A stretch of 64,000 nt of DNA from an uncultured Alphaproteobacteria bacterium (GCA_902616075.1 CACMRK010000004.1:22346-86345), one strand, 5' to 3'; positions 28,564 to 61,781 are shown, counted from the first letter of the stretch. Numbers and translations are program-made. The notes: a model not told the origin generated them from the letters alone.

Positions 28564-29886
28564 TTACAATCTATTTAAATAATCCATTAACCTATAATAA
28601 ATAATGGCTGAAGAATACAATGGTCTTCTAAACATGTTGCCACCTGGAATTTTAAAATGATTAATTTGCTCAAACATATCAAAATTATTTGATTTATTTA
28701 AAATTTTTTCAGCTACCATTTTTCCTCCCATAATACTCATAGCTAAACCATGCCCAGAGTAAGCATGAGCATAATATAACTTTTGATTCATTATAGTTCC
28801 AAAAATAGGCAATCTATTAATCGATATTGCCAAGGTACCTCCCCAAGAAAATTCAATTTTAAATTTTTTTAATTCAGGAAAAACTTTATACATTCGTTTA
28901 GAAACAAAACTCTTTGCATCTTTTACAAAATGAGATGTAATTGTTTCAGGTCCTCCAAAAAGAAGTCTGTAGTCTTCTGAAAATCTATAATAATCAATCA
29001 TAAATCTAGAATCTATTACGCCACAATTTCTTTTGATTAATTTAGTTGCCAGATTTTTTCCGAGAGGTTCAGTTGCAATAATATAATTGTTTATAGGCAT
29101 AAAATAATTTCTTTTTGATCCTAAAAGATTATCAAGATAACCATTACAACCAATAATTACTTTCTTCGCTTTAATAATATTTTTTCCAGAATGAATTATA
29201 ACTTCTTTTTGATTATCAATAATTTTATCAGCTGGAGAATTTTCATATATATTTATACCATTTGCTAAACACTGTTCTGCTAAGCCATATGTTAGTTTTA
29301 ATGGGTTCAAATGATAAGAATCCTTTAAAAGCATCCCAGAAAAATATCTGTCACTATTAACTTCATCTCTTATTGAATTGTGATCAAAGTATTCATAGTT
29401 ATTATAATTATAATTCTTCTGCATATGCTCAATTTCATCTTCAAAATACTTATAATCTTTTTTTGTGTTGCCAACATGAAGAACACCTTGTCTAAGAGCA
29501 CAATCAATTTTGTATTTTTCAATTAAATTAACTACATTTGACACAGCATCTAATCCAACTTTCCAAAAAAAGTTTGATTTTTCAATACCAAATTTTTTTT
29601 CCAGGTAGAACTGATCCTTTCTCATACCAATTCCTAGTTGACCACCATTCCTACCAGAGGCACCAGATCCAACTTTGTTTGCTTCCAAAATAGTTATTGA
29701 TAAACCTTGATTAGATAAATTTAATGCAGAAGAAATACCTGTTAAACCACCTCCAATAATACATACATCAGTTGAAATATTCTCATTTAATTTAATTTGA
29801 TTAGGAAAATTAGGTGCCGAAAATTTATAAAAACTCTCTTTTTCATTATCATGTTGATTAAAGGTCCTTTTTTTTGTAGTAAACAT
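28564..29886 (-). CDS. FAD-dependent oxidoreductase (DAO family; gamma-glutamylputrescine oxidase PuuB-like)
   Basis: Dinucleotide fold VCIIGGGLTGISSAL. Divergent from a PuuA-like gene and next to pot/agu genes. Confidence 0.65.
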   Translation of the reverse strand: MFTTKKRTFNQHDNEKESFYKFSAPNFPNQIKLNENISTDVCIIGGGLTGISSALNLSNQGLSITILEANKVGSGASGRNGGQLGIGMRKDQFYLEKKFGIEKSNFFWKVGLDAVSNVVNLIEKYKIDCALRQGVLHVGNTKKDYKYFEDEIEHMQKNYNYNNYEYFDHNSIRDEVNSDRYFSGMLLKDSYHLNPLKLTYGLAEQCLANGINIYENSPADKIIDNQKEVIIHSGKNIIKAKKVIIGCNGYLDNLLGSKRNYFMPINNYIIATEPLGKNLATKLIKRNCGVIDSRFMIDYYRFSEDYRLLFGGPETITSHFVKDAKSFVSKRMYKVFPELKKFKIEFSWGGTLAISINRLPIFGTIMNQKLYYAHAYSGHGLAMSIMGGKMVAEKILNKSNNFDMFEQINHFKIPGGNMFRRPLYSSAIIYYRLMDYLNRL

Positions 29887-37601: not shown

Positions 37602-38069
37602 TTATTTTTTTAGCTTATTGATTAGTGTAAGGTTACCTGGATCAAAATTATTTTTATTTTCTTGAATAAATTTATCTATATCTTTTTGCTTTTCTAATTC
37701 TAATTCAGAAACTTTTCTAATATTTAAATCAACATACAAAGAACAAACCTCTGTTGTTGCTGCTCTATAACCTTCAAGCTTATGTGTCATTTCTAATTTA
37801 TAAATTAATCTTTTTTTATCCCTATCAAGAAATAACAAATTAATATCTACTTCATCACCCTCTTTCACTTCTTTGTCATAAGTTGTGTGTGACTCTACGG
37901 CAAAAGTAGTTTTCTTCTCTGTTTTTGCAGAAGTTTCACCCATATTAAATTTTTGTAAAAGAACTTCCCATCCAGCATCAAAAAGATGAATATAAAATGC
38001 CAAATTCATATGACCATTGTAATCGGTCCATTCTTTTTTCACTTTTCCTGAATTTAAATATATCTTCAT
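37602..38069 (-). CDS. hotdog-fold acyl-CoA thioesterase (betainyl-CoA thioesterase-like)
   Basis: 155 aa of the 4HBT-type hotdog fold (EWTDYNGHMNLAFY). Divergent from the BKACE + carnitine dehydrogenase genes, as in known carnitine clusters. Confidence 0.6.
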   Translation of the reverse strand: MKIYLNSGKVKKEWTDYNGHMNLAFYIHLFDAGWEVLLQKFNMGETSAKTEKKTTFAVESHTTYDKEVKEGDEVDINLLFLDRDKKRLIYKLEMTHKLEGYRAATTEVCSLYVDLNIRKVSELELEKQKDIDKFIQENKNNFDPGNLTLINKLKK

Positions 38070-38111
38070 TGTTTTTCTTTATTAATTCAAAAAATATAGT
38101 AGTTTAAATTA

Positions 38112-39002
38112 ATGAATAATGAAGTAATAATTTCGTGTGCTGTAACTGGATCAGGAGATACAGCAGGCAAACATCCTGAATTACCTATAACACCAAAACA
38201 AATTGCTGATGCTTCAATTGAAGCTGCCAAAGCGGGTGCAGCAATAGCTCATTTACATGTAAGGGAACCTGATGGCAAACCTTCTAGAAATTTAAGTTAT
38301 TATAAAGAAGTGGCAGATAGAATTCGCTCTTCTGATACTGATGTAGTTTTAAATTTTACTACAGGTATGGGTGGTGATTTTGAAGTTGGAACAGGTAAAG
38401 ATCCTTTAAATCCCGTGGGAGCAAATACAGATATGATCGATGCATTAAGCAGATTAGAACATGTTGAAGAGTTATTGCCAGAAATTTGTACTTTAGACTG
38501 CGGATCACTAAATTTTGGTGACTCAAACATGACATTTATTCATACACCGATACAACTAAGAACTGCAGCAAAAAAAATGCAGGAGCTTGGAGTGAAACCA
38601 GAAATGGAAGCTTTTGAAATGGGTCATTTATGGTTTGCTAACCAACTTTATAAAGAAGGTTTAATTGATGGTCCTCCTTTTTATCAAATATGCCTTGGCA
38701 TACCTTGGGGATCACCTGCAACAACGAGCGCAATGAAAGCAATGGCTGAAATGGTACCTACTGAAGGTATTTGGTCTGGATTTGGAATAGGAAGATCACA
38801 AATGCCCATGGCTGCACAAGCAGTTATTTTAGGAGGAAATGTTCGTGTGGGACTTGAAGATAATCTTTATTTAAAGAAAGGAGTTTTTGCATCAAATGCA
38901 CAGTTAGTTGAAAAAGCAAGATGCATTGTTGAAGATATGGGGGCTTCTATTTTATCCCCTCAACAGACTAGAGAGAAATTAAAACTAAAAAAACATTTTT
39001 AA
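38112..39002 (+). CDS. BKACE (DUF849) family beta-keto acid cleavage enzyme, dehydrocarnitine-cleaving type by context
   Basis: BKACE pattern [10 protein letters not shown]...[27 protein letters not shown]...NFTTGMGG. It lies 1 nt upstream of a carnitine-dehydrogenase-like gene. Confidence 0.7.
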
Positions 39003-39003
39003 T

Positions 39004-39924
39004 TTGAAAAATATTGCTGTCATTGGAACTGGTGTAATTGGTACCGGCTGGATACTTAGATTTCTCGCTAATGGTATAAAAGTCAAAGCATTTGATAAAA
39101 ATTCTCAGCAATTACATTTTCTAAAAGAAGAAATAACAAGAACAAACTTAATTATAAAGAAATTATATAATACAAAAATCAATTTCAAAAATTTGGAAAT
39201 CGTAGACAGTATTGAAGAAGCAGTAAAAAATGCAGAGTTAATTCAGGAAAATGTCCCCGAACGATTAACTTTAAAAAAAGATGTTATAAAAAATATAAGT
39301 AAATATTCACCCTCAAATTCAATAATTGCTTCAAGTTCATCTGGTTTACTTCCATCAGATTTACAATCAAAATGTATTAATCCAAAAAGATTAATCATAG
39401 CTCATCCATTTAACCCTGTATATATTCTCCCTTTGGTTGAAATTGTAAAAGGTAAAAAAACTACAAATTTATATCTAAATAAAGCAAAAAAATTTTATCA
39501 AAAAATTAAAATGAAGACATTATCGGTAGAAAAAGAATTACCAGGCTTTTTATCTGATAGATTGCAAGAAGCTTTGTGGAGAGAGGGGTTACATATTGTA
39601 AATGATGGATATGCTTCAACAAAAGATTTAGATGAAGCAATCACTTATGGGCCTGGTATGAGGTGGGCTTTAATGGGAACTTTTCTTACTTTTCATCTTG
39701 CTGGAGGAGAAATGGGTATGAAACACATGTTAGATCAATTTGGACCAGCATTAAAACTTCCATGGACTAAACTGAAATCTCCAAAATTGACAAAAAAGCT
39801 TAAAGAAAAAATCATCAAAGGAACAAAAAAACAATCAAATAATCATTCTATAAAAGATTTAAGTAACATAAGAGATAATTTCTTAATAGATTTGCTAGAA
39901 TTAAAGAAAAAATATAAATTATAA
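39004..39924 (+). CDS. L-carnitine dehydrogenase-like 3-hydroxyacyl-CoA dehydrogenase family protein
   Basis: Rossmann motif IAVIGTGVIGTGW and 3HCDH N- and C-terminal domains. TTG start per the track. BKACE and thioesterase gene context. Confidence 0.65.
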   Translation: MKNIAVIGTGVIGTGWILRFLANGIKVKAFDKNSQQLHFLKEEITRTNLIIKKLYNTKINFKNLEIVDSIEEAVKNAELIQENVPERLTLKKDVIKNISKYSPSNSIIASSSSGLLPSDLQSKCINPKRLIIAHPFNPVYILPLVEIVKGKKTTNLYLNKAKKFYQKIKMKTLSVEKELPGFLSDRLQEALWREGLHIVNDGYASTKDLDEAITYGPGMRWALMGTFLTFHLAGGEMGMKHMLDQFGPALKLPWTKLKSPKLTKKLKEKIIKGTKKQSNNHSIKDLSNIRDNFLIDLLELKKKYKL

Positions 39925-39926
39925 TT

Positions 39927-40934
39927 ATGACAATAATCTCAAAATATGTAGCTTTAAAAAATTATATACCAACTGGCTTACCCAAAGAAGAGGATTTTGA
40001 AATTAAATCTAAAACTTTAGAATTAGATGAAACAAATAATATTCATGTTCTTAATTCATGGATATCTGTTGATCCGTATATGAGAGCAAGAATGACAGAA
40101 CGTAAAAATTATAAACCACCCTTTTTACTAGGCGAGGAAATGGAAGGTTATGCAATTGGGTCAGTACAAAAATCAAAAGATTCACAATTTAAAGAAGGAG
40201 ATGTTGTTTTCAGTAATTTTGGAATGAGAGATAACTTCATTTGCAAAGGCGGTGATTTAAAAAAAATAAAAAATTCCAATCTTCCATTGCAAACTTATCT
40301 AGGACCTTTAGGAATGACAGGTCAAACAGCATATATTGGTCTTTTTAATCATGGAAATATACAAAAGGGACAAAGTATTCTTGTATCTTCAGCAGGTGGA
40401 AGTGTTGGATCAACAGTTTGTCAAATTGCAAAAAATTTAGGATGTAAAGTTTATGCTAGTACAGGATCAGATGAAAAAGTTGATTGGTTAAAAAATGAAT
40501 TAAATGTTGATGTGGCATTTAATTATAAAAAAATTGATAACCTTGTTCTTCACTTAAAAGAAATTTGTCCTGAAGGATTTGACTTATATTTTGATAATGT
40601 TGGGGGTGATTTTTTAGAGTCTGCGATTTTTCGAATGAAAAATTTTGGAAGAATTATTATTTGTGGAAGAATATCTCAGATGAATTCAACTTCTACTCCT
40701 GCTGGACTAAAAAATATGGCTCACGTATTAGTAAAAAGATTAACAATAAAAGGTTTTTTAATTTTTGATCATGAAAATGATAATGAGCCTTTTGAAACTG
40801 ATATGCGAAATTGGATTTCAGAAGGAAAAATAAAATTTAAAGAAACAATTTATGAAAATATAGAAAATGCTCCTAAAGCATTTATAGATTTACTTAATGG
40901 TAAAAATTTAGGCAAAATGTTAGTTAAAATTTAA
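39927..40934 (+). CDS. NADP-dependent oxidoreductase, MDR superfamily (alkenal/enone reductase, PTGR1/YncB/CurA-like)
   Basis: SVDPYMRARM and AGGSVGSTVCQIAK motifs; 335 aa. Begins 2 nt after the dehydrogenase gene. Confidence 0.7.
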   Translation: MTIISKYVALKNYIPTGLPKEEDFEIKSKTLELDETNNIHVLNSWISVDPYMRARMTERKNYKPPFLLGEEMEGYAIGSVQKSKDSQFKEGDVVFSNFGMRDNFICKGGDLKKIKNSNLPLQTYLGPLGMTGQTAYIGLFNHGNIQKGQSILVSSAGGSVGSTVCQIAKNLGCKVYASTGSDEKVDWLKNELNVDVAFNYKKIDNLVLHLKEICPEGFDLYFDNVGGDFLESAIFRMKNFGRIIICGRISQMNSTSTPAGLKNMAHVLVKRLTIKGFLIFDHENDNEPFETDMRNWISEGKIKFKETIYENIENAPKAFIDLLNGKNLGKMLVKI

Positions 40935-42374
40935 CTAAATTGTAACGTAGGGAGACGTCCCTCGATATTTTATATCTAATTTAAGTTCTTTATCAATTGG
41001 AGGAAAAGCTCTTTGCTGACATTCCACTCTAGGGCATATCCTACACGAAACTCCAATTGGCATTTGTAATTTTTTATTATTAAGATCAATTCCTTCAGAA
41101 TAAATTAGATCTTTAGCGTATTTCATATCACAACCTAAACCAATCGAAACAAAACTTTTAGGCATTCCATGTTTTTCAATTCCTTTCTCAAAAGCTCTTG
41201 CTATACAAAAATATACTCGTCCATCAGGCATTTTAGATATTTGAGGATGAATTTTTCCAGGATTTAAAAAAGCAGTATACACATTCCATCTAGGACAAGA
41301 ACCTCCATGTCTTGGTATATGAATACCAGATAAAGAAAATCGCTTTGACACATTTCCAGCAATATCTGTTTTTAAAAAATGAAATGGCACTCCTTCGTTT
41401 CCAGGTCTTTGAAGATTTGTTAATCTATGTGTAACTTGTTCAAAACTACAAGCATAATGATGCATCAAAATTTCTACATCATATTTATGTAATTTAGCAC
41501 TCTTTAAAAAATCGTTATAAGGCATCATAAAAGCAGCAGCATAATAATTTAGTAAAGATAGTTTAAGCAAAGGTTCTACTTCTTCTGATTCGACGTTATT
41601 ATCTTTAATAACTTTATTGATAACATCATTAGCCTCTAAATAAGCAACTTGTGATGCTAAATGAAAGTTTCTTGATGTGTAAGTTAACATTTCAGAAAGA
41701 TAAAAAATCTTGGATTTTTCATCAAATCTTTTAACTATTTTTTCATCTTCGTTTATGGTCACTATTTTAACTTCAATTCCATGTTTTTCTTTAAGATAAA
41801 GTGATAATTTAGATCCAGAACCAATGTTAGGTCCAGTTTCAAGACCTATTTCTTTTCTTAGATTTTCAGAACTTACTTCTAAATCATGAAAATAATTTTT
41901 ATTTTCTTGAAGAATATCTGAAACGATTTCTACAGGTAATCTTGTTGGTTTTTCAATTTGATTTGCATTGACATCCATCGTTTCAAGTCGATTTTGCATA
42001 TCTTCTTTAAAACTTTTAAAAGAATCATTTATTGTCAGTAATGCCTTAGCTATGTTAGGATTTGAACCAATAAAGTCACTTGTGTCATAATTGGTTATCT
42101 TTAAATCATCAAAAATCTCATTGCTTAAAACATCCATTACGTCTGAAAGTAGTCGTTTACTAGATTCTGTTGAGAAGTCTTTAATTGATAAATCTAATTT
42201 ATCAGCTGCTTTAATTAGTAAGGAAAGTGGTATTTTTCTTTTTCCACTTTCAATTAAATTTAAATAACTAGGAGATATACCAATAGTTTTTGATAATTCA
42301 GCTTGTGAAAAACCTTTGCTTATCCTTTGTTTTTTTAACCTTGGGCCAAAATTTATGTCAGATTCAATATTCAT
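40935..42374 (-). CDS. ScfR/RamB/PrpR-family transcriptional regulator (XRE HTH + DUF955-like + DUF2083 Cys-rich domain)
   Basis: N-terminal XRE HTH (FSQAELSKTIGISPSYLNLIESGKR). Central degenerate ImmA/IrrE-like region (NFHLASQVAYLE). C-terminal GGSCPRWNV ... CRICPRVECQQRAFPP cysteine pattern typical of the family. Confidence 0.8.
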   Translation of the reverse strand: MNIESDINFGPRLKKQRISKGFSQAELSKTIGISPSYLNLIESGKRKIPLSLLIKAADKLDLSIKDFSTESSKRLLSDVMDVLSNEIFDDLKITNYDTSDFIGSNPNIAKALLTINDSFKSFKEDMQNRLETMDVNANQIEKPTRLPVEIVSDILQENKNYFHDLEVSSENLRKEIGLETGPNIGSGSKLSLYLKEKHGIEVKIVTINEDEKIVKRFDEKSKIFYLSEMLTYTSRNFHLASQVAYLEANDVINKVIKDNNVESEEVEPLLKLSLLNYYAAAFMMPYNDFLKSAKLHKYDVEILMHHYACSFEQVTHRLTNLQRPGNEGVPFHFLKTDIAGNVSKRFSLSGIHIPRHGGSCPRWNVYTAFLNPGKIHPQISKMPDGRVYFCIARAFEKGIEKHGMPKSFVSIGLGCDMKYAKDLIYSEGIDLNNKKLQMPIGVSCRICPRVECQQRAFPPIDKELKLDIKYRGTSPYVTI

Positions 42375-42390
42375 TTACAAAATTTACAAA
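42374..42390. promoter_or_regulatory. tandem octamer element A: TTTACAAA-a-TTTACAAA (candidate ScfR-type operator)
   Basis: Read directly from the sequence. On the regulator's strand it is TTTGTAAA-t-TTTGTAAA, ending in the A of the regulator ATG. Confidence 0.45.
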
Positions 42391-42464
42391 AATAATAAAT
42401 TCGAAGTAATTTTCTTTACATTAAAACTAAGAAAAACTCTAGTTTTTTTTCATTTTTTTATGTA

Positions 42465-42481
42465 TTTGTAAAATCTGTAAA
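42465..42481. promoter_or_regulatory. tandem octamer element B: TTTGTAAA-a-TCTGTAAA (inverted copy of element A)
   Basis: Read directly from the sequence. It is the reverse complement of element A at 16/17 positions and ends 1 nt before the ATG of the 59-codon ORF. Confidence 0.45.
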
Positions 42482-42482
42482 T

Positions 42483-42662
42483 ATGAACAGTAAATTAACA
42501 GAAAATATTAACAACCAAAAAGACAGCCTAGAGCAGAGTTCTATTGAGAAGAAGGTTCTTGAAGGATCTATAGACTCAAATTATGACCTTAATCTTGCTG
42601 ATGGTATCGAAGCATACTACAGCGAAAGATACGGTTGGACTCTTAGAAGAAAAACGATCTAA
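42483..42662 (+). CDS. unannotated 59-aa hypothetical protein (below the ORF-track size cut-off)
   Basis: My translation is MNSKLTENINNQKDSLEQSSIEKKVLEGSIDSNYDLNLADGIEAYYSERYGWTLRRKTI*. It is the only open frame in the largest gap of the window, has a G+C-enriched 3' half, and is followed by a hairpin + T-run. Confidence 0.4.
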   Translation: MNSKLTENINNQKDSLEQSSIEKKVLEGSIDSNYDLNLADGIEAYYSERYGWTLRRKTI

Positions 42663-42678
42663 TTAAATTAGATTTTTT
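42657..42678. terminator. weak AT-rich bidirectional hairpin terminator between the mini-ORF and the GMC oxidoreductase gene
   Basis: ATCTAAT (42657-42663) pairs with ATTAGAT (42667-42673). A T-run follows at 42673-42678 on the plus strand, and CGTTTT follows on the minus strand. The stem has only one G:C pair, so it is weak. Confidence 0.35.
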
Positions 42679-42682
42679 CTCT

Positions 42683-44284
42683 CTAACTAACGGTACTATT
42701 TATTTGGTCGTAAGCTTTTTCAGCAATCATAATAGTTGTTGCATTTAAATTAGCACTAACAATATCTGGCATTACAGAAGCATCAATAACTCTTAAATTT
42801 TGAATTCCATGAACCCTTAGGTCTTGGTCTACAACTGAAGTTTTGTCCTCACCCATTTTATTAGTGCATGACGGATGATACGCAGATTCAGATGTATTTT
42901 TAATAACTTCATTTAATTCATTTTGATTAGATACATTTTTCCCAGGCCTAATTTCTTTACCGAGATACTCTTTAAGTGGTTTTTGAGACAAAATTTTTCT
43001 AGCAATTCTTACACCTTCTCTCATTTGTTTTAAATCATCCTCATGCTTAAGGTAATTAAATTGAATTTTAGGATCATCTTTATAGTTATTTGTTTTAATT
43101 TTAATAAAACCTCTGCTTTTTGGTCTATTTGGACATACATGAAATTGAAAAGCTTCAAACTTAGGATTTTCTAAACCATGATTAATAACTAAGTACGGAA
43201 AAAAATGAAATTGTAAGTTTGGATGACTATATGATTTGTCAGATTTAACAAACCCTCCTAATTCTAAATGTGAGTTTGCTAATCTACCTTTTTTAAATAA
43301 AAACCATTTTGATCCCTCAATAGCTTGATAAAGATAATTCGTTGCTAGAGTATGTAATGTTTCATTTTTTTTAGATTTATACTGAATGTACATCTCTAAA
43401 TGATCTTGTAAATTTTCTCCCACCCCAACTAAATTATTAATAACTTCTATTCCCAAGCTTTTAAGATACGTTTCATTACCTATTCCGGATAGTTGAAGAA
43501 TTTTAGGTGAATTAATTGAACCAGCACAAAGTATAACTTCTTTATTGGCTAAATAATTATTGGTTATATTTTTTTTAATCGTTTCAACACCAATTGCAGT
43601 TTTATTTTTAAAAAGAATTTTTTTAACATCAATATTATTTATTATTCTTAGATTTTTTCTATTTTGGATTGGCTCTAAATATGCCTTAGCAACACTTTGC
43701 CTAACACCATTGTTTATTGTTACATCAAAAGTTCCAAAACCTTCCTTATCAATACTGTTAGAGTCATTAAATATTTTATATCCAGCTTCTTGTGCAGCTT
43801 CTAAAACTTTTTTAAATAGAGGATATTTTTTATCTATGTTTGATTTATTTACTTTTAATGGCCCCTCTTTACCTCTTACATTACTATCATGAGACCAAGT
43901 TTCTAATTTTTTAAAAAAAGGTAAAACTTTTTCATATGACCAATTAGTTAAACCACTTGAAGACCATCTATCAAAATCCTCTTTATGACCTCTAGCGAAA
44001 ACCATTCCGTTATGCGAAGAGCATCCCCCGATCATTTTACCTCTTGGACAATATAAAGATCTATTATTTAGAAACGGCTCAGGCTCAGTATAATATTTCC
44101 AATTATATTTTGGATCATGCATTGCATATAGAAGTGCACTTGGCATATCAACTTTCCAGGTTTTACTGGATGGGCCAGCTTCTAATAAAATTACAGAATT
44201 CTTTGATTGTGAAGACAATCTGTTAGCTAAAACACAACCTGCTGACCCTGCTCCAACAATGATGTAGTCAGCGTTTTTATCCAC
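42683..44284 (-). CDS. GMC family oxidoreductase (choline dehydrogenase-like), copy 1
   Basis: FAD fold DYIIVGAGSAGCVLANRLS and a GMC C-terminal substrate domain with AYHPSCT and VIDASVMP. Confidence 0.85.
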   Translation of the reverse strand: MDKNADYIIVGAGSAGCVLANRLSSQSKNSVILLEAGPSSKTWKVDMPSALLYAMHDPKYNWKYYTEPEPFLNNRSLYCPRGKMIGGCSSHNGMVFARGHKEDFDRWSSSGLTNWSYEKVLPFFKKLETWSHDSNVRGKEGPLKVNKSNIDKKYPLFKKVLEAAQEAGYKIFNDSNSIDKEGFGTFDVTINNGVRQSVAKAYLEPIQNRKNLRIINNIDVKKILFKNKTAIGVETIKKNITNNYLANKEVILCAGSINSPKILQLSGIGNETYLKSLGIEVINNLVGVGENLQDHLEMYIQYKSKKNETLHTLATNYLYQAIEGSKWFLFKKGRLANSHLELGGFVKSDKSYSHPNLQFHFFPYLVINHGLENPKFEAFQFHVCPNRPKSRGFIKIKTNNYKDDPKIQFNYLKHEDDLKQMREGVRIARKILSQKPLKEYLGKEIRPGKNVSNQNELNEVIKNTSESAYHPSCTNKMGEDKTSVVDQDLRVHGIQNLRVIDASVMPDIVSANLNATTIMIAEKAYDQINSTVS

Positions 44285-45066: not shown

Positions 45067-45333
45067 TTATTGAATATTATCTATCTCTTTTTTAGAAATA
45101 TATCCAATAGTTTTACCTTTATTGTCAGTAACTACTATTGTTAAGTTGTCTTCAAGAATTTTATTTTTAAAATTTTTTAGTTTTATATTTTGGTTTACTT
45201 TGTAAATAGAACCTAATGTTAAATTATCTTTATTAAAACTGTTCTCAATTATCATTATATTTTTTGCTTCTAGATTATCTATTCTATTTTCTTTGCTAGA
45301 AAAAATATTAAGTAAAAATTTAAATATATTCAT
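45067..45333 (-). CDS. 88-aa protein with a single CBS-like motif
   Basis: The C-terminal NLTIVVTDNKGKTIGYISKKEIDNI resembles the beta2-beta3-alpha2 end of a CBS domain. It is packed with 0 nt to the SDR gene and 18 nt to the ABC ATPase gene. Confidence 0.45.
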   Translation of the reverse strand: MNIFKFLLNIFSSKENRIDNLEAKNIMIIENSFNKDNLTLGSIYKVNQNIKLKNFKNKILEDNLTIVVTDNKGKTIGYISKKEIDNIQ

Positions 45334-60143: not shown

Positions 60144-61781
60144 TTAATTTTTTAATATCAAATCTGATGCTTTTTCTGCTAACATAATTACAGATGCATT
60201 TATATTTCCACTTATCATATCTGGAAAAGAAGAAGCATCTACTACTCTCAGATTGTCTATTCCTCTAACTTTAAGCTGATTATCAAGTACAGCCATTTTG
60301 TTATTACTTGAACCCATTGCGCAAGTAGATGCAGGATGATGACCTGTTTGTACATGATTTCTAACTGACTCTTTTAAATCTTGGTCACTTTTGATTTTTT
60401 TTCCTGGAAGTAATTCTTCCGAAACAATTTTAGCTAAACTGGGTTTTGACAATACTTCTCTTGTATGCTTCATCCCTTCTATCATATCTTCCATATCAGA
60501 TGGATCGATGAACCAATTTGGATTTATATTAAGTTCATCATTTGGATTTGAGCTTTTAAGTTTTACACTTCCTGTGCTCTTTGGTCTTAGTAAATTAATT
60601 TGAAAGTGTAATCCTGGAAAAGCTTTTTTACCTCTAGAAAAAAATAATGAACCAAAATTTAATAAATTGTCTAAACTCATAGACCAATTATCTTTTTCTT
60701 CTTTAAAACACATAGGTGTCATGAATACTTGTATTTCAGGCATATCTTTTTCTCTTATTGCATGAAATAGATTTGTTGACCAAAAAGGAGCTGCGGCTAA
60801 TCCCTGTTTAAATAAAATATATTTTAATCCCACAATAATAGCTCTATCGATCCTTTGATATTTAGAGAAACTTAAATTGTTATTTTGAAAAGCCCAATTC
60901 ATTGGCATAACAGGATGATCGTGAAGGTTTTCACCTACTCCAGGTAATTTAATTAATAATTCTATATTTTTTTCTTTTAAATGTGACTCTGGACCAATTC
61001 CTGACAACATTAAGCATTTGGGACTACCGAATGCCCCTAAAGATAATATTACCTCTGATGATGCATAAACTTCACCATTTGATAAAAGCAATCCTTTAGC
61101 TTTATTTTTCTCAATTAAAATTTTTATTACAGATGTATTTTTATAAATTGTTAAGTTGTTAGGTTTAAATTTCAAATAAGCTTCTGCAGATGATTGTCTT
61201 TTTCCATTCCATACTTTAACATCATATCGGCCTACTCCATTTAGATTGCCATTATAAAAATCATCATTAATTTCTGCCCCAGCCTCAACACATGCATCAA
61301 TAAATGCTTTATCGATAGAATTGTAGTTACCAGCTGGTGTAAGTTTTAAAGGACCTGAATGTGAGTGAAATTCATTTTTTTCTCTATGAAAAGCTGAAGC
61401 AGATCTTTTGAAATATGGTAATACATCATTATATGACCAACCCTCTAAGCCCTTTTGTCTCCACCTATTAAAATCACCTGGAGCACCTCTCATGTAAATC
61501 ATACCATTTAAAAGAGAAGATCCTCCTAGTCCTTTACCTCTAGGATATAAAATTTTTCTGTTATTTAAAGAAGGTTGAGGTATTGACTCAAAACCCCAAT
61601 CAAATTTAGGGTTTCCAAAAATGTATCCGTTACCACCAGGCATTTGAGTGAATAAACTTTTTCCTGACCCCCCTGCTTCTATTAGTAATACCTTTATATC
61701 TTTATTTTCAGATAATCTTGAGGCTAAAGTACAGCCAGCAGAACCTCCGCCTGCAATTATATAGTCAAATGTTTTTTTCAT
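60144..61781 (-). CDS. GMC family oxidoreductase (choline dehydrogenase-like), copy 2
   Basis: DYIIAGGGSAGCTLASRLS, GGSSLLNGM, HHPASTCAMG and VVDASSFP. Directly upstream (same strand) of the ALDH gene, in a betA-betB-like arrangement. Confidence 0.85.
   Translation of the reverse strand: MKKTFDYIIAGGGSAGCTLASRLSENKDIKVLLIEAGGSGKSLFTQMPGGNGYIFGNPKFDWGFESIPQPSLNNRKILYPRGKGLGGSSLLNGMIYMRGAPGDFNRWRQKGLEGWSYNDVLPYFKRSASAFHREKNEFHSHSGPLKLTPAGNYNSIDKAFIDACVEAGAEINDDFYNGNLNGVGRYDVKVWNGKRQSSAEAYLKFKPNNLTIYKNTSVIKILIEKNKAKGLLLSNGEVYASSEVILSLGAFGSPKCLMLSGIGPESHLKEKNIELLIKLPGVGENLHDHPVMPMNWAFQNNNLSFSKYQRIDRAIIVGLKYILFKQGLAAAPFWSTNLFHAIREKDMPEIQVFMTPMCFKEEKDNWSMSLDNLLNFGSLFFSRGKKAFPGLHFQINLLRPKSTGSVKLKSSNPNDELNINPNWFIDPSDMEDMIEGMKHTREVLSKPSLAKIVSEELLPGKKIKSDQDLKESVRNHVQTGHHPASTCAMGSSNNKMAVLDNQLKVRGIDNLRVVDASSFPDMISGNINASVIMLAEKASDLILKN

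What the first reader, a model, noticed from the sequence alone, without database searches (positions are those of the whole stretch)
42483..42662. Unannotated 59-codon gene divergent from the regulator, in the largest otherwise empty gap of the window
Seen: ATG 42483 to TAA 42660-42662 encodes MNSKLTENINNQKDSLEQSSIEKKVLEGSIDSNYDLNLADGIEAYYSERYGWTLRRKTI. It falls one codon short of the supplied track's apparent 60-aa threshold. The 3' half (GCTGATGGTATCGAAGCATACTACAGCGAAAGATACGGTTGGACT) is conspicuously less AT-rich than the flanking spacer, as expected for constrained codons. A hairpin plus T-run follows at 42657-42678. The tandem octamer element sits 1 nt before the ATG.

Inference: in a genome this compact a 308-nt gap is unlikely to be idle. 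The ORF may be a real small protein under control of the ScfR-type regulator, or the transcript may be a regulatory RNA.
Basis: partly seen in the sequence, partly recalled or inferred. Interest (0 to 1): 0.55.

Follow-up and report, generated by a model that had tools for sequence, protein, structure and literature searches.

The report
Conserved small protein beside ScfR regulator
The 59-codon ORF is a real, strongly conserved small-protein gene of SAR11 marine bacteria that always sits head-to-head with an acyl-CoA-sensing (ScfR/RamB-type) regulator and carries that regulator family's binding site just before its start codon. Its function is unknown, and public databases already list it as a "hypothetical protein".

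Summary
ATG 42483 to TAA 42662 encodes 59 aa in the window's largest ORF-free gap (308 nt).

It is a protein-coding gene, not an RNA:
- All 65 related SAR11 genomes with this spacer keep the ORF intact.
- Variable sites by codon position are 20/12/50.
- dN/dS is 0.02-0.09 with synonymous sites saturated.
- Invariant Ser, Leu and Arg residues switch between codon families.
- There is no Rfam hit and no covarying RNA structure.

It belongs to an undescribed family of more than 2,000 sequence clusters. Members are 55-65 aa, with a variable acidic N-terminus and an invariant C-terminus, AYYSxRYGWTLR[RK]. AlphaFold predicts that C-terminus as a β-hairpin (pLDDT about 90). No Pfam, NCBIfam or PDB relative was found.

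In 66 of 66 metagenomic loci with upstream sequence, the gene is divergent from a 479-aa ScfR regulator 100-130 nt away. Downstream neighbours vary: a GMC oxidoreductase, an aldo/keto reductase or isocitrate lyase.

Both start codons abut a 17-bp tandem octamer, TTTGTAAA-N-TTTGTAAA. This has the architecture of the M. tuberculosis PrpR operator (TTTGCAAA-N-TTTGCgAA).

The gene is most likely a direct ScfR target whose product acts in that circuit. The exact sequence is already in NCBI as a hypothetical protein. Interest is moderate.

The parts
42483..42662 (+). Small protein-coding gene: 59 aa, 6.8 kDa, pI 4.9, no Cys, hydrophilic. The start is fixed at this ATG.
   Evidence: In diverged relatives an in-frame stop lies just upstream of the ATG, so 59 aa is the conserved product.
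42603..42659 (+). Codons 41-59, encoding the invariant family motif (G)IEAYYSERYGWTLRRK. It is predicted to form a beta-hairpin (E42-47, E51-56).
   Evidence: Conservation. AF2 with the diverse alignment gives pLDDT 92 and 87 for the last two 10-residue blocks.
42465..42481 (+). 17-bp tandem octamer TTTGTAAA-A-TCTGTAAA, a ScfR/PrpR-type operator-like site, one base before the small gene's ATG.
   Evidence: two exact core matches in 64 kb against 0.08 expected. The TGTAAA cores are 5/6 invariant across 66 sequences. Tandem boxes are present in 64 of 66 unique family upstream regions. PrpR operator layout from PMC6765138.
42374..42390 (-). Second 17-bp tandem octamer TTTGTAAA-T-TTTGTAAA on the minus strand. 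Its last A is the A of the regulator's ATG.
   Evidence: 16 of 17 positions are invariant across 66 sequences, while the adjacent spacer has 0 of 13 invariant.
42404..42420 (.). Central conserved element AAGTAATTTTCTTTACA (GTAA...TTAC inverted half-boxes). Other subclades carry TTTACAnnnTTTACC here.
   Evidence: 12 of 17 positions invariant. Family comparison.
42437..42449 (.). Conserved block ACTAGTTTTTTTT of unknown role, possibly a promoter element.
   Evidence: 9 of 13 positions invariant.
42643..42686 (.). A-tract, AT-rich hairpin (stem 42656-42663/42667-42674) and T-tract: a bidirectional terminator-like structure between the convergent small gene and the GMC gene. It contains the stop codon.
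   Evidence: dG -4.4 for the core, -11.7 and -12.6 extended. Not called by the consensus scan.
40935..42374 (-). Divergent 479-aa ScfR/RamB-type regulator (HTH_3 + degenerate Peptidase_M78 + ScfRs C-terminal domain).
   Evidence: ScfRs 5.6e-62. (RamB model 412 bits, below its 700-bit cut-off).

Best explanation
42483-42662 is a genuine gene for a 59-aa soluble cytoplasmic protein. It is the founding example in this window of an uncharacterised family restricted to Pelagibacterales.

The gene forms a fixed divergent pair with the ScfR/RamB-type acyl-CoA-sensing regulator.

Shown:
- The protein sequence is under strong purifying selection.
- Its C-terminal 19 residues are almost invariant and are predicted to form a beta-hairpin.
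- The 108-bp divergent spacer holds two footprinted 17-bp tandem-octamer sites, one abutting each start codon, plus a conserved central element.

Inferred:
- The ScfR tetramer binds these boxes. They overlap the core promoters, because the -10-like TAAAAT lies inside box 1, so the mRNA would be leaderless or nearly so. ScfR would thereby control its own gene and the small gene together, in response to a CoA-thioester signal.
- Transcription ends at the AT-rich bidirectional hairpin shared with the convergent GMC oxidoreductase gene.
- The product uses its conserved amphipathic, basic hairpin to bind a conserved partner in the same circuit. The regulator itself is the most likely partner (feedback modulation). 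The next candidate is an enzyme of the ancestral regulon, because isocitrate lyase directly follows the small gene in deeper-branching lineages.
For: Coding status:
- The 59-aa ORF is intact at the same place in 65 of 65 SAR11 genomes found through the regulator, a search not biased by the ORF.
- Variable columns by codon position are 20/12/50. In codons 22-59 they are 9/3/33.
- Pairwise pS is 0.39-0.83 against pN 0.02-0.10.
- Across 68 distinct motif sequences, Ser47 uses AGY and TCN codons, Leu54 uses CTN and TTA, Arg uses AGR and CGG, and Gly uses all four codons.

Family:
- 178 close clusters, mostly exactly 59 aa.
- 36 representatives among 1.84 billion proteins.
- 2,231 and 2,247 clusters found with family profiles.

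Linkage:
- 66 of 66 metagenomic loci with upstream sequence have the divergent ScfR gene 100-130 nt away. The downstream gene varies: GMC convergent, aldo/keto reductase co-directional, or ICL co-directional.
- Between the window and its most diverged genome-scan relatives the small protein stays about 85-90% identical. The regulator stays 89-92%, but the GMC and SDR neighbours drop to about 70-75%.

Operator:
- The exact TGTAAAN3TGTAAA pattern occurs only at these two sites in 64 kb, against 0.08 expected.
- Footprinting: O1 16/17 invariant, O3 cores 5/6 each, spacers 0-4 invariant.
- 64 of 66 unique family upstream regions carry the tandem boxes. In 60 of them the second box ends 0-6 nt before the ATG.
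- The layout equals MtPrpR's TTTGCAAA-N1-TTTGCgAA (PMC6765138). Paired boxes are typical of ScfR sites (PMC10370305).

Structure:
- The hairpin has pLDDT about 90.
- The protein is hydrophilic, with an acidic N-terminal part and a basic C-terminal part.
Against: - No expression, transcription-start or binding data exist here. Literature searches found nothing on this gene.
- The boxes differ from characterised ScfR boxes by C to T at position 5, and binding is untested.
- In one distant member (L075) no regulator gene is adjacent, although boxes are present.
- The proposed partner is pure inference. AF2 gives only pLDDT 53-67 for residues 1-40. Foldseek and PDB searches gave nothing.
Confidence: 0.7

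Rival explanations
1. The region is a non-coding regulatory RNA (an sRNA or a 5'/3' UTR element), and the ORF is incidental.
For: The folding z-score of 42460-42690 is -1.87, but most of that comes from the terminator hairpin. The nucleotide sequence of the 3' half is fairly conserved.
Against: - Substitutions concentrate at third codon positions, and dN/dS is 0.02-0.09.
- Codon-family switches occur at invariant Ser, Leu and Arg residues.
- The ORF length is conserved in every relative.
- No Rfam hit reaches even half its gathering score.
- RNAalifold gives -12.95 kcal/mol, a covariation term of -0.79, and 1 of 31 pairs compensatory; that pair is broken in 4 of 12 sequences.
Confidence: 0.02
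2. It is a real small protein, but functionally unrelated to the regulator. The boxes would serve only the regulator's autoregulation. The small gene would keep its place because breakpoints inside the compact divergent promoter are not tolerated.
For: - No direct evidence of interaction or co-regulation exists.
- Downstream neighbours change freely, which shows the locus is rearranged often.
- One distant member lacks an adjacent regulator.
Against: - A second, separately footprinted 17-bp site sits next to the small gene's own ATG, 91 bp from the regulator-proximal site.
- That site follows the small gene even in L075, where no regulator gene is adjacent.
- In a streamlined genome, association in 131 of 131 loci across 58-, 59- and 65-aa subfamilies is hard to explain by inertia alone.
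Confidence: 0.15
3. It is a precursor peptide of a ribosomally made cofactor or natural product (like PqqA or MftA). The conserved C-terminus would be the modified core, processed with help from the neighbouring GMC oxidoreductase, which resembles MftG.
For: - The C-terminus is invariant, rich in Tyr and Trp, and follows a variable 'leader'.
- The GMC neighbour hits the MftG model at 310.7 bits.
Against: - The GMC protein is below the MftG cut-off (387) and passes the choline dehydrogenase subfamily model instead (705 against 605).
- It is convergent with the small gene and is replaced by other genes in many loci.
- No radical-SAM, peptidase or chaperone (MftB/MftC/PqqD-type) gene appears in any locus examined.
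- The motif is predicted as a folded hairpin.
Confidence: 0.02
4. It is a leader or upstream ORF whose translation, rather than its product, tunes expression of the downstream gene (ICL or the aldo/keto reductase).
For: In some lineages a co-directional gene follows 36-98 nt downstream with no evident terminator.
Against: - In this window and 45 other loci the next gene is convergent, so there is nothing to attenuate.
- Selection acts on the amino-acid sequence itself.
Confidence: 0.03

Closest known systems
PrpR/RamB (ScfR-family) operators and their divergently transcribed targets, e.g. M. tuberculosis prpR-prpDC and ramB-icl1
   Same: - The regulator has the same domain architecture: HTH_3, degenerate M78, and the ScfRs domain with its Cys cluster.
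- The operator has the same layout: two 8-bp boxes separated by one base pair, 17 bp in all, in a divergent promoter region (PMC6765138).
- In deeper Pelagibacterales lineages the regulated side includes isocitrate lyase.
   Different: - The boxes read TTTGTAAA, not TTTGCAAA.
- They abut both start codons, and extra boxes at 9-10 bp spacing flank them.
- The first, and in this window the only, divergent target is a 59-aa protein with no counterpart in the described ScfR systems.
Small bacterial proteins that modulate a regulator or enzyme encoded or controlled nearby (general class, recalled from general knowledge; e.g. MgrB acting on PhoQ)
   Same: The size is about 60 aa. The gene appears to be controlled by the regulator it sits next to. 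A short, extremely conserved interaction-type motif is joined to a variable remainder.
   Different: There is no sequence or fold relationship to any such protein. The protein is soluble, not membrane-bound. No interaction has been demonstrated.
Public 'hypothetical protein' gene calls in Pelagibacteraceae (MDC3022354.1, MDC3017131.1, OUW96711.1)
   Same: MDC3022354.1 is identical in sequence to the window's product. The exact sequence was seen on at least 1,000 contigs.
   Different: These records carry no family, domain, function or regulatory context.

Membership tests
Genuine protein-coding gene | Reading frame intact and of the same length in orthologues | tested here: met
   65 of 65 genome loci have the 59-aa ORF. 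96 of the 120 listed protein clusters are exactly 59 aa.
Genuine protein-coding gene | Three-base periodicity of substitutions and dN/dS well below 1 | tested here: met
   Variable columns 20/12/50 by codon position. dN/dS 0.018-0.085. Synonymous codon-family switches at invariant residues.
Genuine protein-coding gene | Evidence of transcription and translation | not testable with these tools
   No RNA-seq, Ribo-seq or proteomic data are available here. Literature searches found nothing specific.
ScfR/PrpR-type regulon member (operator-controlled gene) | Two near-identical 8-bp TTTGCAAA-like boxes separated by 1 bp upstream of the gene | tested here: met
   TTTGTAAA-A-TCTGTAAA at 42465-42481, with one C-to-T change per box relative to MtPrpR. 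Enriched and footprinted.
ScfR/PrpR-type regulon member (operator-controlled gene) | A ScfR-family regulator encoded in the genome, typically adjacent and divergent | tested here: met
   Regulator at 40935-42374 (-) has the ScfRs domain at 5.6e-62. It is adjacent in 65 of 65 and 66 of 66 loci.
ScfR/PrpR-type regulon member (operator-controlled gene) | The regulator binds the site and changes transcription in response to acyl-CoA | not testable with these tools
   Needs EMSA, DAP-seq or reporter assays.
Structured regulatory RNA (Rfam family or novel) | Match to a covariance model, or a conserved structure supported by compensatory changes | tested here: not met
   The best Rfam hit scores 23.7 bits against a gathering score of 55, E = 7. 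RNAalifold covariation term is -0.79, with 1 of 31 pairs compensatory.
Any described protein family (Pfam-A, NCBIfam; including hemP, MazE, DUFs) | Profile match at or near the curated threshold | tested here: not met
   No Pfam family for the query. Only scattered hits with E above 0.008 for 78 family members. The NCBIfam MazE hit scores 12.5 bits against a cut-off of 108. PDB sequence and fold searches were null.
RiPP or peptide-cofactor precursor (PqqA/MftA-like) | Co-located maturase genes (radical SAM, RRE/chaperone, peptidase) | tested here: not met
   None in the window neighbourhood or in related loci.
Intrinsic (rho-independent) terminator | G+C-rich stem-loop followed by a T-run | tested here: inconclusive
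   The stem-loop and six-T run are present, but the stem has only one G-C pair and dG is -4.4. The consensus scan found none. The sequence differs in diverged relatives.

The most novel reading that the evidence does not exclude
The 59-aa protein is a dedicated protein partner of the ScfR/RamB circuit in the ocean's most abundant bacteria. It could be a small co-regulator that binds the ScfR tetramer through its invariant beta-hairpin and closes a feedback loop. Alternatively it could control the isocitrate branch point (ICL or IDH), replacing the AceK-type control that these genomes are not known to have. That last point is my recollection and was not tested here. Either way it would be a new class of small-protein modulator attached to a widespread family of acyl-CoA-sensing transcription factors.
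Probability: 0.2. Interest if true: 0.7.

Novelty: new member of a known kind. Interest (0 to 1): 0.4.

Why it matters
SAR11 cells are known for streamlined genomes with few transcription factors (general knowledge, not tested here). In this study one such regulator is always accompanied by a tiny gene.

- That gene is conserved more strongly than its enzyme-coding neighbours.
- It is represented by thousands of sequence variants in ocean metagenomes.
- It is apparently wired directly to the regulator's operator.

If the protein modulates the regulator or the glyoxylate branch point, it would be a missing piece in how these cells decide what to do with acetyl-CoA and other small organic acids. 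That decision matters for marine carbon cycling. At the least, the family deserves a name and a profile model so that gene callers using a 60-aa cut-off stop missing it.

Tried and rejected
Searches that found nothing:
- Rfam scan of 42200-42900 at E up to 10: only chance-level hits.
- Pfam and NCBIfam scans of the peptide, and Pfam scans of 78 family members: nothing.
- PDB sequence profile search: only antibody heavy-chain chance matches.
- Foldseek against PDB: best E = 2.1.
- The first AF2 run, with 97 close homologues, gave a low-confidence two-helix model (pLDDT 64.5). A run with a diverse alignment superseded it.
- Consensus promoter and terminator scan: promoter-like hits no more frequent than in shuffles, and no terminator called.

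Hypotheses rejected:
- One-mismatch operator matches at 28913 and 47180 lie inside ORFs and are treated as chance.
- A second copy of the gene, or ICL or the aldo/keto reductase, elsewhere in the window: none found.
- RiPP precursor, toxin-antitoxin, leader-peptide and sRNA readings (see rivals).

- I prepared paired regulator+peptide concatenations for a fused AF2 run.
- Carter & Alber 2015 (PMC4560284), the paper that defined ScfR classes, is not held.
- Literature searches for SAR11 with RamB or ScfR, leaderless transcripts, or small proteins found nothing relevant.

Full report
**Observation.** The ORF is exactly as described. ATG 42483 to TAA 42660-42662 on the + strand encodes MNSKLTENINNQKDSLEQSSIEKKVLEGSIDSNYDLNLADGIEAYYSERYGWTLRRKTI.
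- It lies between a 479-aa regulator on the minus strand (40935-42374) and a convergent 533-aa GMC oxidoreductase (42683-44284).
- The regulator carries HTH_3, a degenerate Peptidase_M78 domain and the ScfRs C-terminal domain (5.6e-62). It scores 412 bits on the NCBIfam RamB model, below that model's 700-bit cut-off.
- The GMC protein passes the choline dehydrogenase subfamily model (705 bits against a cut-off of 605).
- The 308-nt stretch 42375-42682 is the largest part of the window without an ORF of at least 60 aa. The next largest is 187 nt.
- The hairpin and T-run exist: stem 42656-42663/42667-42674, then T6 at 42673-42678. The stem is weak (-4.4 kcal/mol). With the upstream A-run it extends to -11.7 on the + strand and -12.6 on the - strand. 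That is the shape of a bidirectional terminator serving both convergent genes. The consensus scan did not call it.
- The tandem octamer TTTGTAAA-A-TCTGTAAA occupies 42465-42481, one base before the ATG.
- ORF length alone proves nothing in this AT-rich sequence, because many spurious ORFs of similar size overlap real genes.

**Coding or RNA?** I fetched relatives through the regulator protein, so the sample is not biased toward loci that keep the ORF.
- The scan returned 66 SAR11 single-cell or metagenome-assembled genomes with regulators 89-100% identical.
- All 65 that include the spacer have an intact 59-aa ORF at the same position.
- In the more diverged genomes an in-frame stop lies just upstream of the ATG, which fixes the start.
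- Variable alignment columns by codon position are 20/12/50 of 59. In codons 22-59 they are 9/3/33 of 38.
- Against the diverged genomes the proportion of synonymous differences is 0.39-0.83, which is saturated. The non-synonymous proportion is 0.02-0.10. Where it can be computed, dN/dS is 0.018-0.085.
- Across 68 distinct DNA versions of the C-terminal motif, invariant residues are written with different codon families. Ser47 uses AGY and TCN, Leu54 uses CTN and TTA, Arg uses AGR and CGG, and Gly51 uses all four codons.
- No Rfam family comes near its threshold.
- RNAalifold on 12 diverse orthologues gives -12.95 kcal/mol over 180 nt with a covariation term of -0.79. Only one of 31 pairs shows compensatory change, and that pair is broken in four sequences.

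The region therefore encodes a protein under strong purifying selection. The sRNA alternative is rejected.

**The family.**
- A first protein search found 178 clusters, nearly all exactly 59 aa and 81-100% identical, from marine metagenomes and Pelagibacteraceae.
- The exact window sequence is NCBI MDC3022354.1, 'hypothetical protein OA167_03610 [Pelagibacteraceae bacterium]'. It was seen on at least 1,000 contigs.
- A profile search of 1.84 billion representative proteins found only 36 hits. Apart from truncated, chimeric or long repetitive sequences, these are small proteins of about 53-65 aa.
- Family profiles then recovered 2,231 and 2,247 clusters.
- Members fall into 58-, 59- and 65-aa subfamilies. 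They share a variable, polar, acidic N-terminal two-thirds and an almost invariant C-terminus, [EN]AYYSxRYGWTLR[RK].
- No member matches any Pfam or NCBIfam model.
- There is no PDB sequence relative.
- AlphaFold2 with a diverse 78-sequence alignment predicts residues 42-47 and 51-56 as a beta-hairpin, with pLDDT about 90. Residues 1-40 form a low-confidence helix (pLDDT 53-67).
- Foldseek finds nothing significant.
- The protein is hydrophilic (GRAVY -0.95), has no Cys, and has pI 4.9. Its first 40 residues are acidic and its last 19 residues basic. It is therefore most likely soluble and cytoplasmic.

**Genomic association.**
- A metagenome scan with the motif YSxRYGWTL returned 80 loci.
- Together with contigs looked up by exact protein, every one of the 66 loci that extend upstream has a 479-aa ScfR regulator. 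It is divergently oriented, 100-130 nt away, usually 107-113 nt.
- The downstream neighbour is not fixed. It is the convergent GMC oxidoreductase in 45 loci. It is a co-directional 341-aa aldo/keto reductase 27-57 nt downstream in about 27 loci.
- In the 65-aa subfamily the downstream gene is isocitrate lyase, about 90-98 nt downstream with no evident terminator. That is the classical RamB-icl arrangement with the small gene inserted as the first gene of the regulated side.
- Between the window and its most diverged genome-scan relatives, the small protein stays about 85-90% identical and the regulator 89-92%. The GMC and SDR neighbours drop to about 70-75%.
- The window itself contains no ICL or aldo/keto reductase.
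- The genes on the far side of the regulator are a thioesterase, a beta-keto-acid cleavage enzyme (BKACE), a 3-hydroxyacyl-CoA dehydrogenase and a zinc-type dehydrogenase.

**The operator.**
- The core pattern TGTAAA-N3-TGTAAA occurs exactly twice in 64 kb, against 0.08 expected. Both copies lie in this 108-bp spacer.
- One copy is on the + strand at 42467-42481, ending one base before the small gene's ATG. The other is on the - strand at 42374-42388, with its last A being the A of the regulator's ATG.
- Written as 17-mers they are TTTGTAAA-A-TCTGTAAA and TTTGTAAA-T-TTTGTAAA.
- The published recognition sequence of M. tuberculosis PrpR is a 17-bp element, TTTGCAAA and TTTGCgAA separated by one base pair. 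TTTGC(A/G)AA also maps to RamB sites (PMC6765138).
- Pairs of near-identical boxes are described as common for ScfR sites (PMC10370305).
- Phylogenetic footprinting over 66 sequences supports function:

| Element | Invariant positions |
|---|---|
| Regulator-proximal site (42374-42390) | 16 of 17 |
| Each TGTAAA core of the small-gene site | 5 of 6 |
| Central element (42404-42420) | 12 of 17 |
| Intervening spacers | 0-4 of 13-16 |

- Across the whole family, 64 of 66 unique upstream regions carry the tandem boxes.
- In the 58- and 59-aa subfamilies the second box ends 0-6 nt before the ATG.
- In the 65-aa subfamily it lies 16-18 nt upstream and is followed by a Shine-Dalgarno sequence.
- One-mismatch matches elsewhere in the window lie inside genes and are taken as chance.

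**Mechanism.**
- Shown: a real, strongly constrained small protein gene; an obligate divergent pairing with a ScfR regulator; and two conserved PrpR-type operator-like sites that flank the shared promoter region and touch both start codons.
- Inferred, operator binding: the regulator binds these sites and co-regulates itself and the small gene in response to a CoA-thioester. By analogy with PrpR and RamB it would be a tetramer with a [4Fe-4S] cluster and a CoA-ester pocket.
- Inferred, transcript start: the -10-like hexamer TAAAAT (42469-42474) lies inside box 1, 8 nt before the ATG, and no Shine-Dalgarno sequence is present. The transcript is therefore probably leaderless or nearly so, and a bound regulator would occlude the promoter.
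- Inferred, partner: the product's invariant amphipathic, basic hairpin docks onto a conserved partner. I favour the regulator itself, because it is the only invariant neighbour. An enzyme of the ancestral regulon (ICL, or the isocitrate branch point) is the next candidate.
- The direction of regulation and the partner are not established.

**Comparison and novelty.**
- The regulatory design is a recognisable ScfR/PrpR-RamB divergent promoter.
- The small protein has no described relative.
- Its gene call already exists in public databases as a hypothetical protein, so the ORF itself is not a discovery.
- New here are the demonstration of selection, the family definition with its C-terminal hairpin motif, the invariable pairing with ScfR, and the operator placement.
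- I found no paper addressing any of this.
- I rate it a new member of a known kind: a small ORF-encoded protein in a transcription-factor regulon. Interest is moderate at 0.4. It would be higher if the protein proves to be a partner of the regulator or a controller of the glyoxylate branch point.

Noticed in passing
window 42374-42481 (whole 108-bp divergent spacer): The layout is symmetrical. PrpR-like 17-bp tandem octamers point outward and touch both start codons. A conserved central inverted half-box element lies at 42404-42420 and a conserved ACTAGTTTTTTTT block at 42437-42449. Other SAR11 subclades have up to four or five TTTACA boxes at 9-10 bp spacing on the regulator side.
   Followed up: partly
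window 37602-40934: The gene set is a 4HBT thioesterase (-), a BKACE beta-keto-acid cleavage enzyme, a 3-hydroxyacyl-CoA dehydrogenase and a zinc-type dehydrogenase (+). From memory, it resembles carnitine/beta-keto-acid catabolic clusters. It is syntenic with the regulator across SAR11 subclades. No ScfR boxes were seen at its promoter.
   Followed up: partly
window 45067-45333 (-): An 88-aa ORF with no Pfam hit lies between the SDR gene and the ABC-transporter ATPase gene. It may be another small gene. Its conservation was not examined.
   Followed up: no
window 60156-61781 (-): A second GMC oxidoreductase paralogue, 37% identical to the one at 42683-44284.
   Followed up: no
database proteins P0016, P0023, P0028, P0134: Several metagenomic 'proteins' are chimeras. 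Some join a ribosomal protein S15 N-terminus to this small protein at the shared LTE(N/R)IN stretch. One (P0134) joins the regulator's N-terminus to the small protein at ...YLNL/DLNL.... These are probably assembly or gene-calling artefacts.
   Followed up: no
database proteins P0001-P0011: Some gene callers extend the ORF to 77-89 aa from upstream in-frame starts inside the promoter region. In diverged relatives an in-frame stop excludes these extensions.
   Followed up: yes
L075 1-277: A distant family member (65 aa, P0147) has no adjacent regulator gene. It is still preceded by about eight TTTACA-type boxes and by a GC-rich terminator hairpin of the upstream gene. Downstream is a signal-peptide protein that may be porin-like. 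The organism is unknown.
   Followed up: partly
L104, L108, L111, L121 and others, downstream of the small gene: In about 27 metagenomic loci a 341-343-aa aldo/keto reductase follows the small gene co-directionally at 27-57 nt. From memory it resembles E. coli YghZ/Gpr. The two genes are probably one operon in those subclades.
   Followed up: partly
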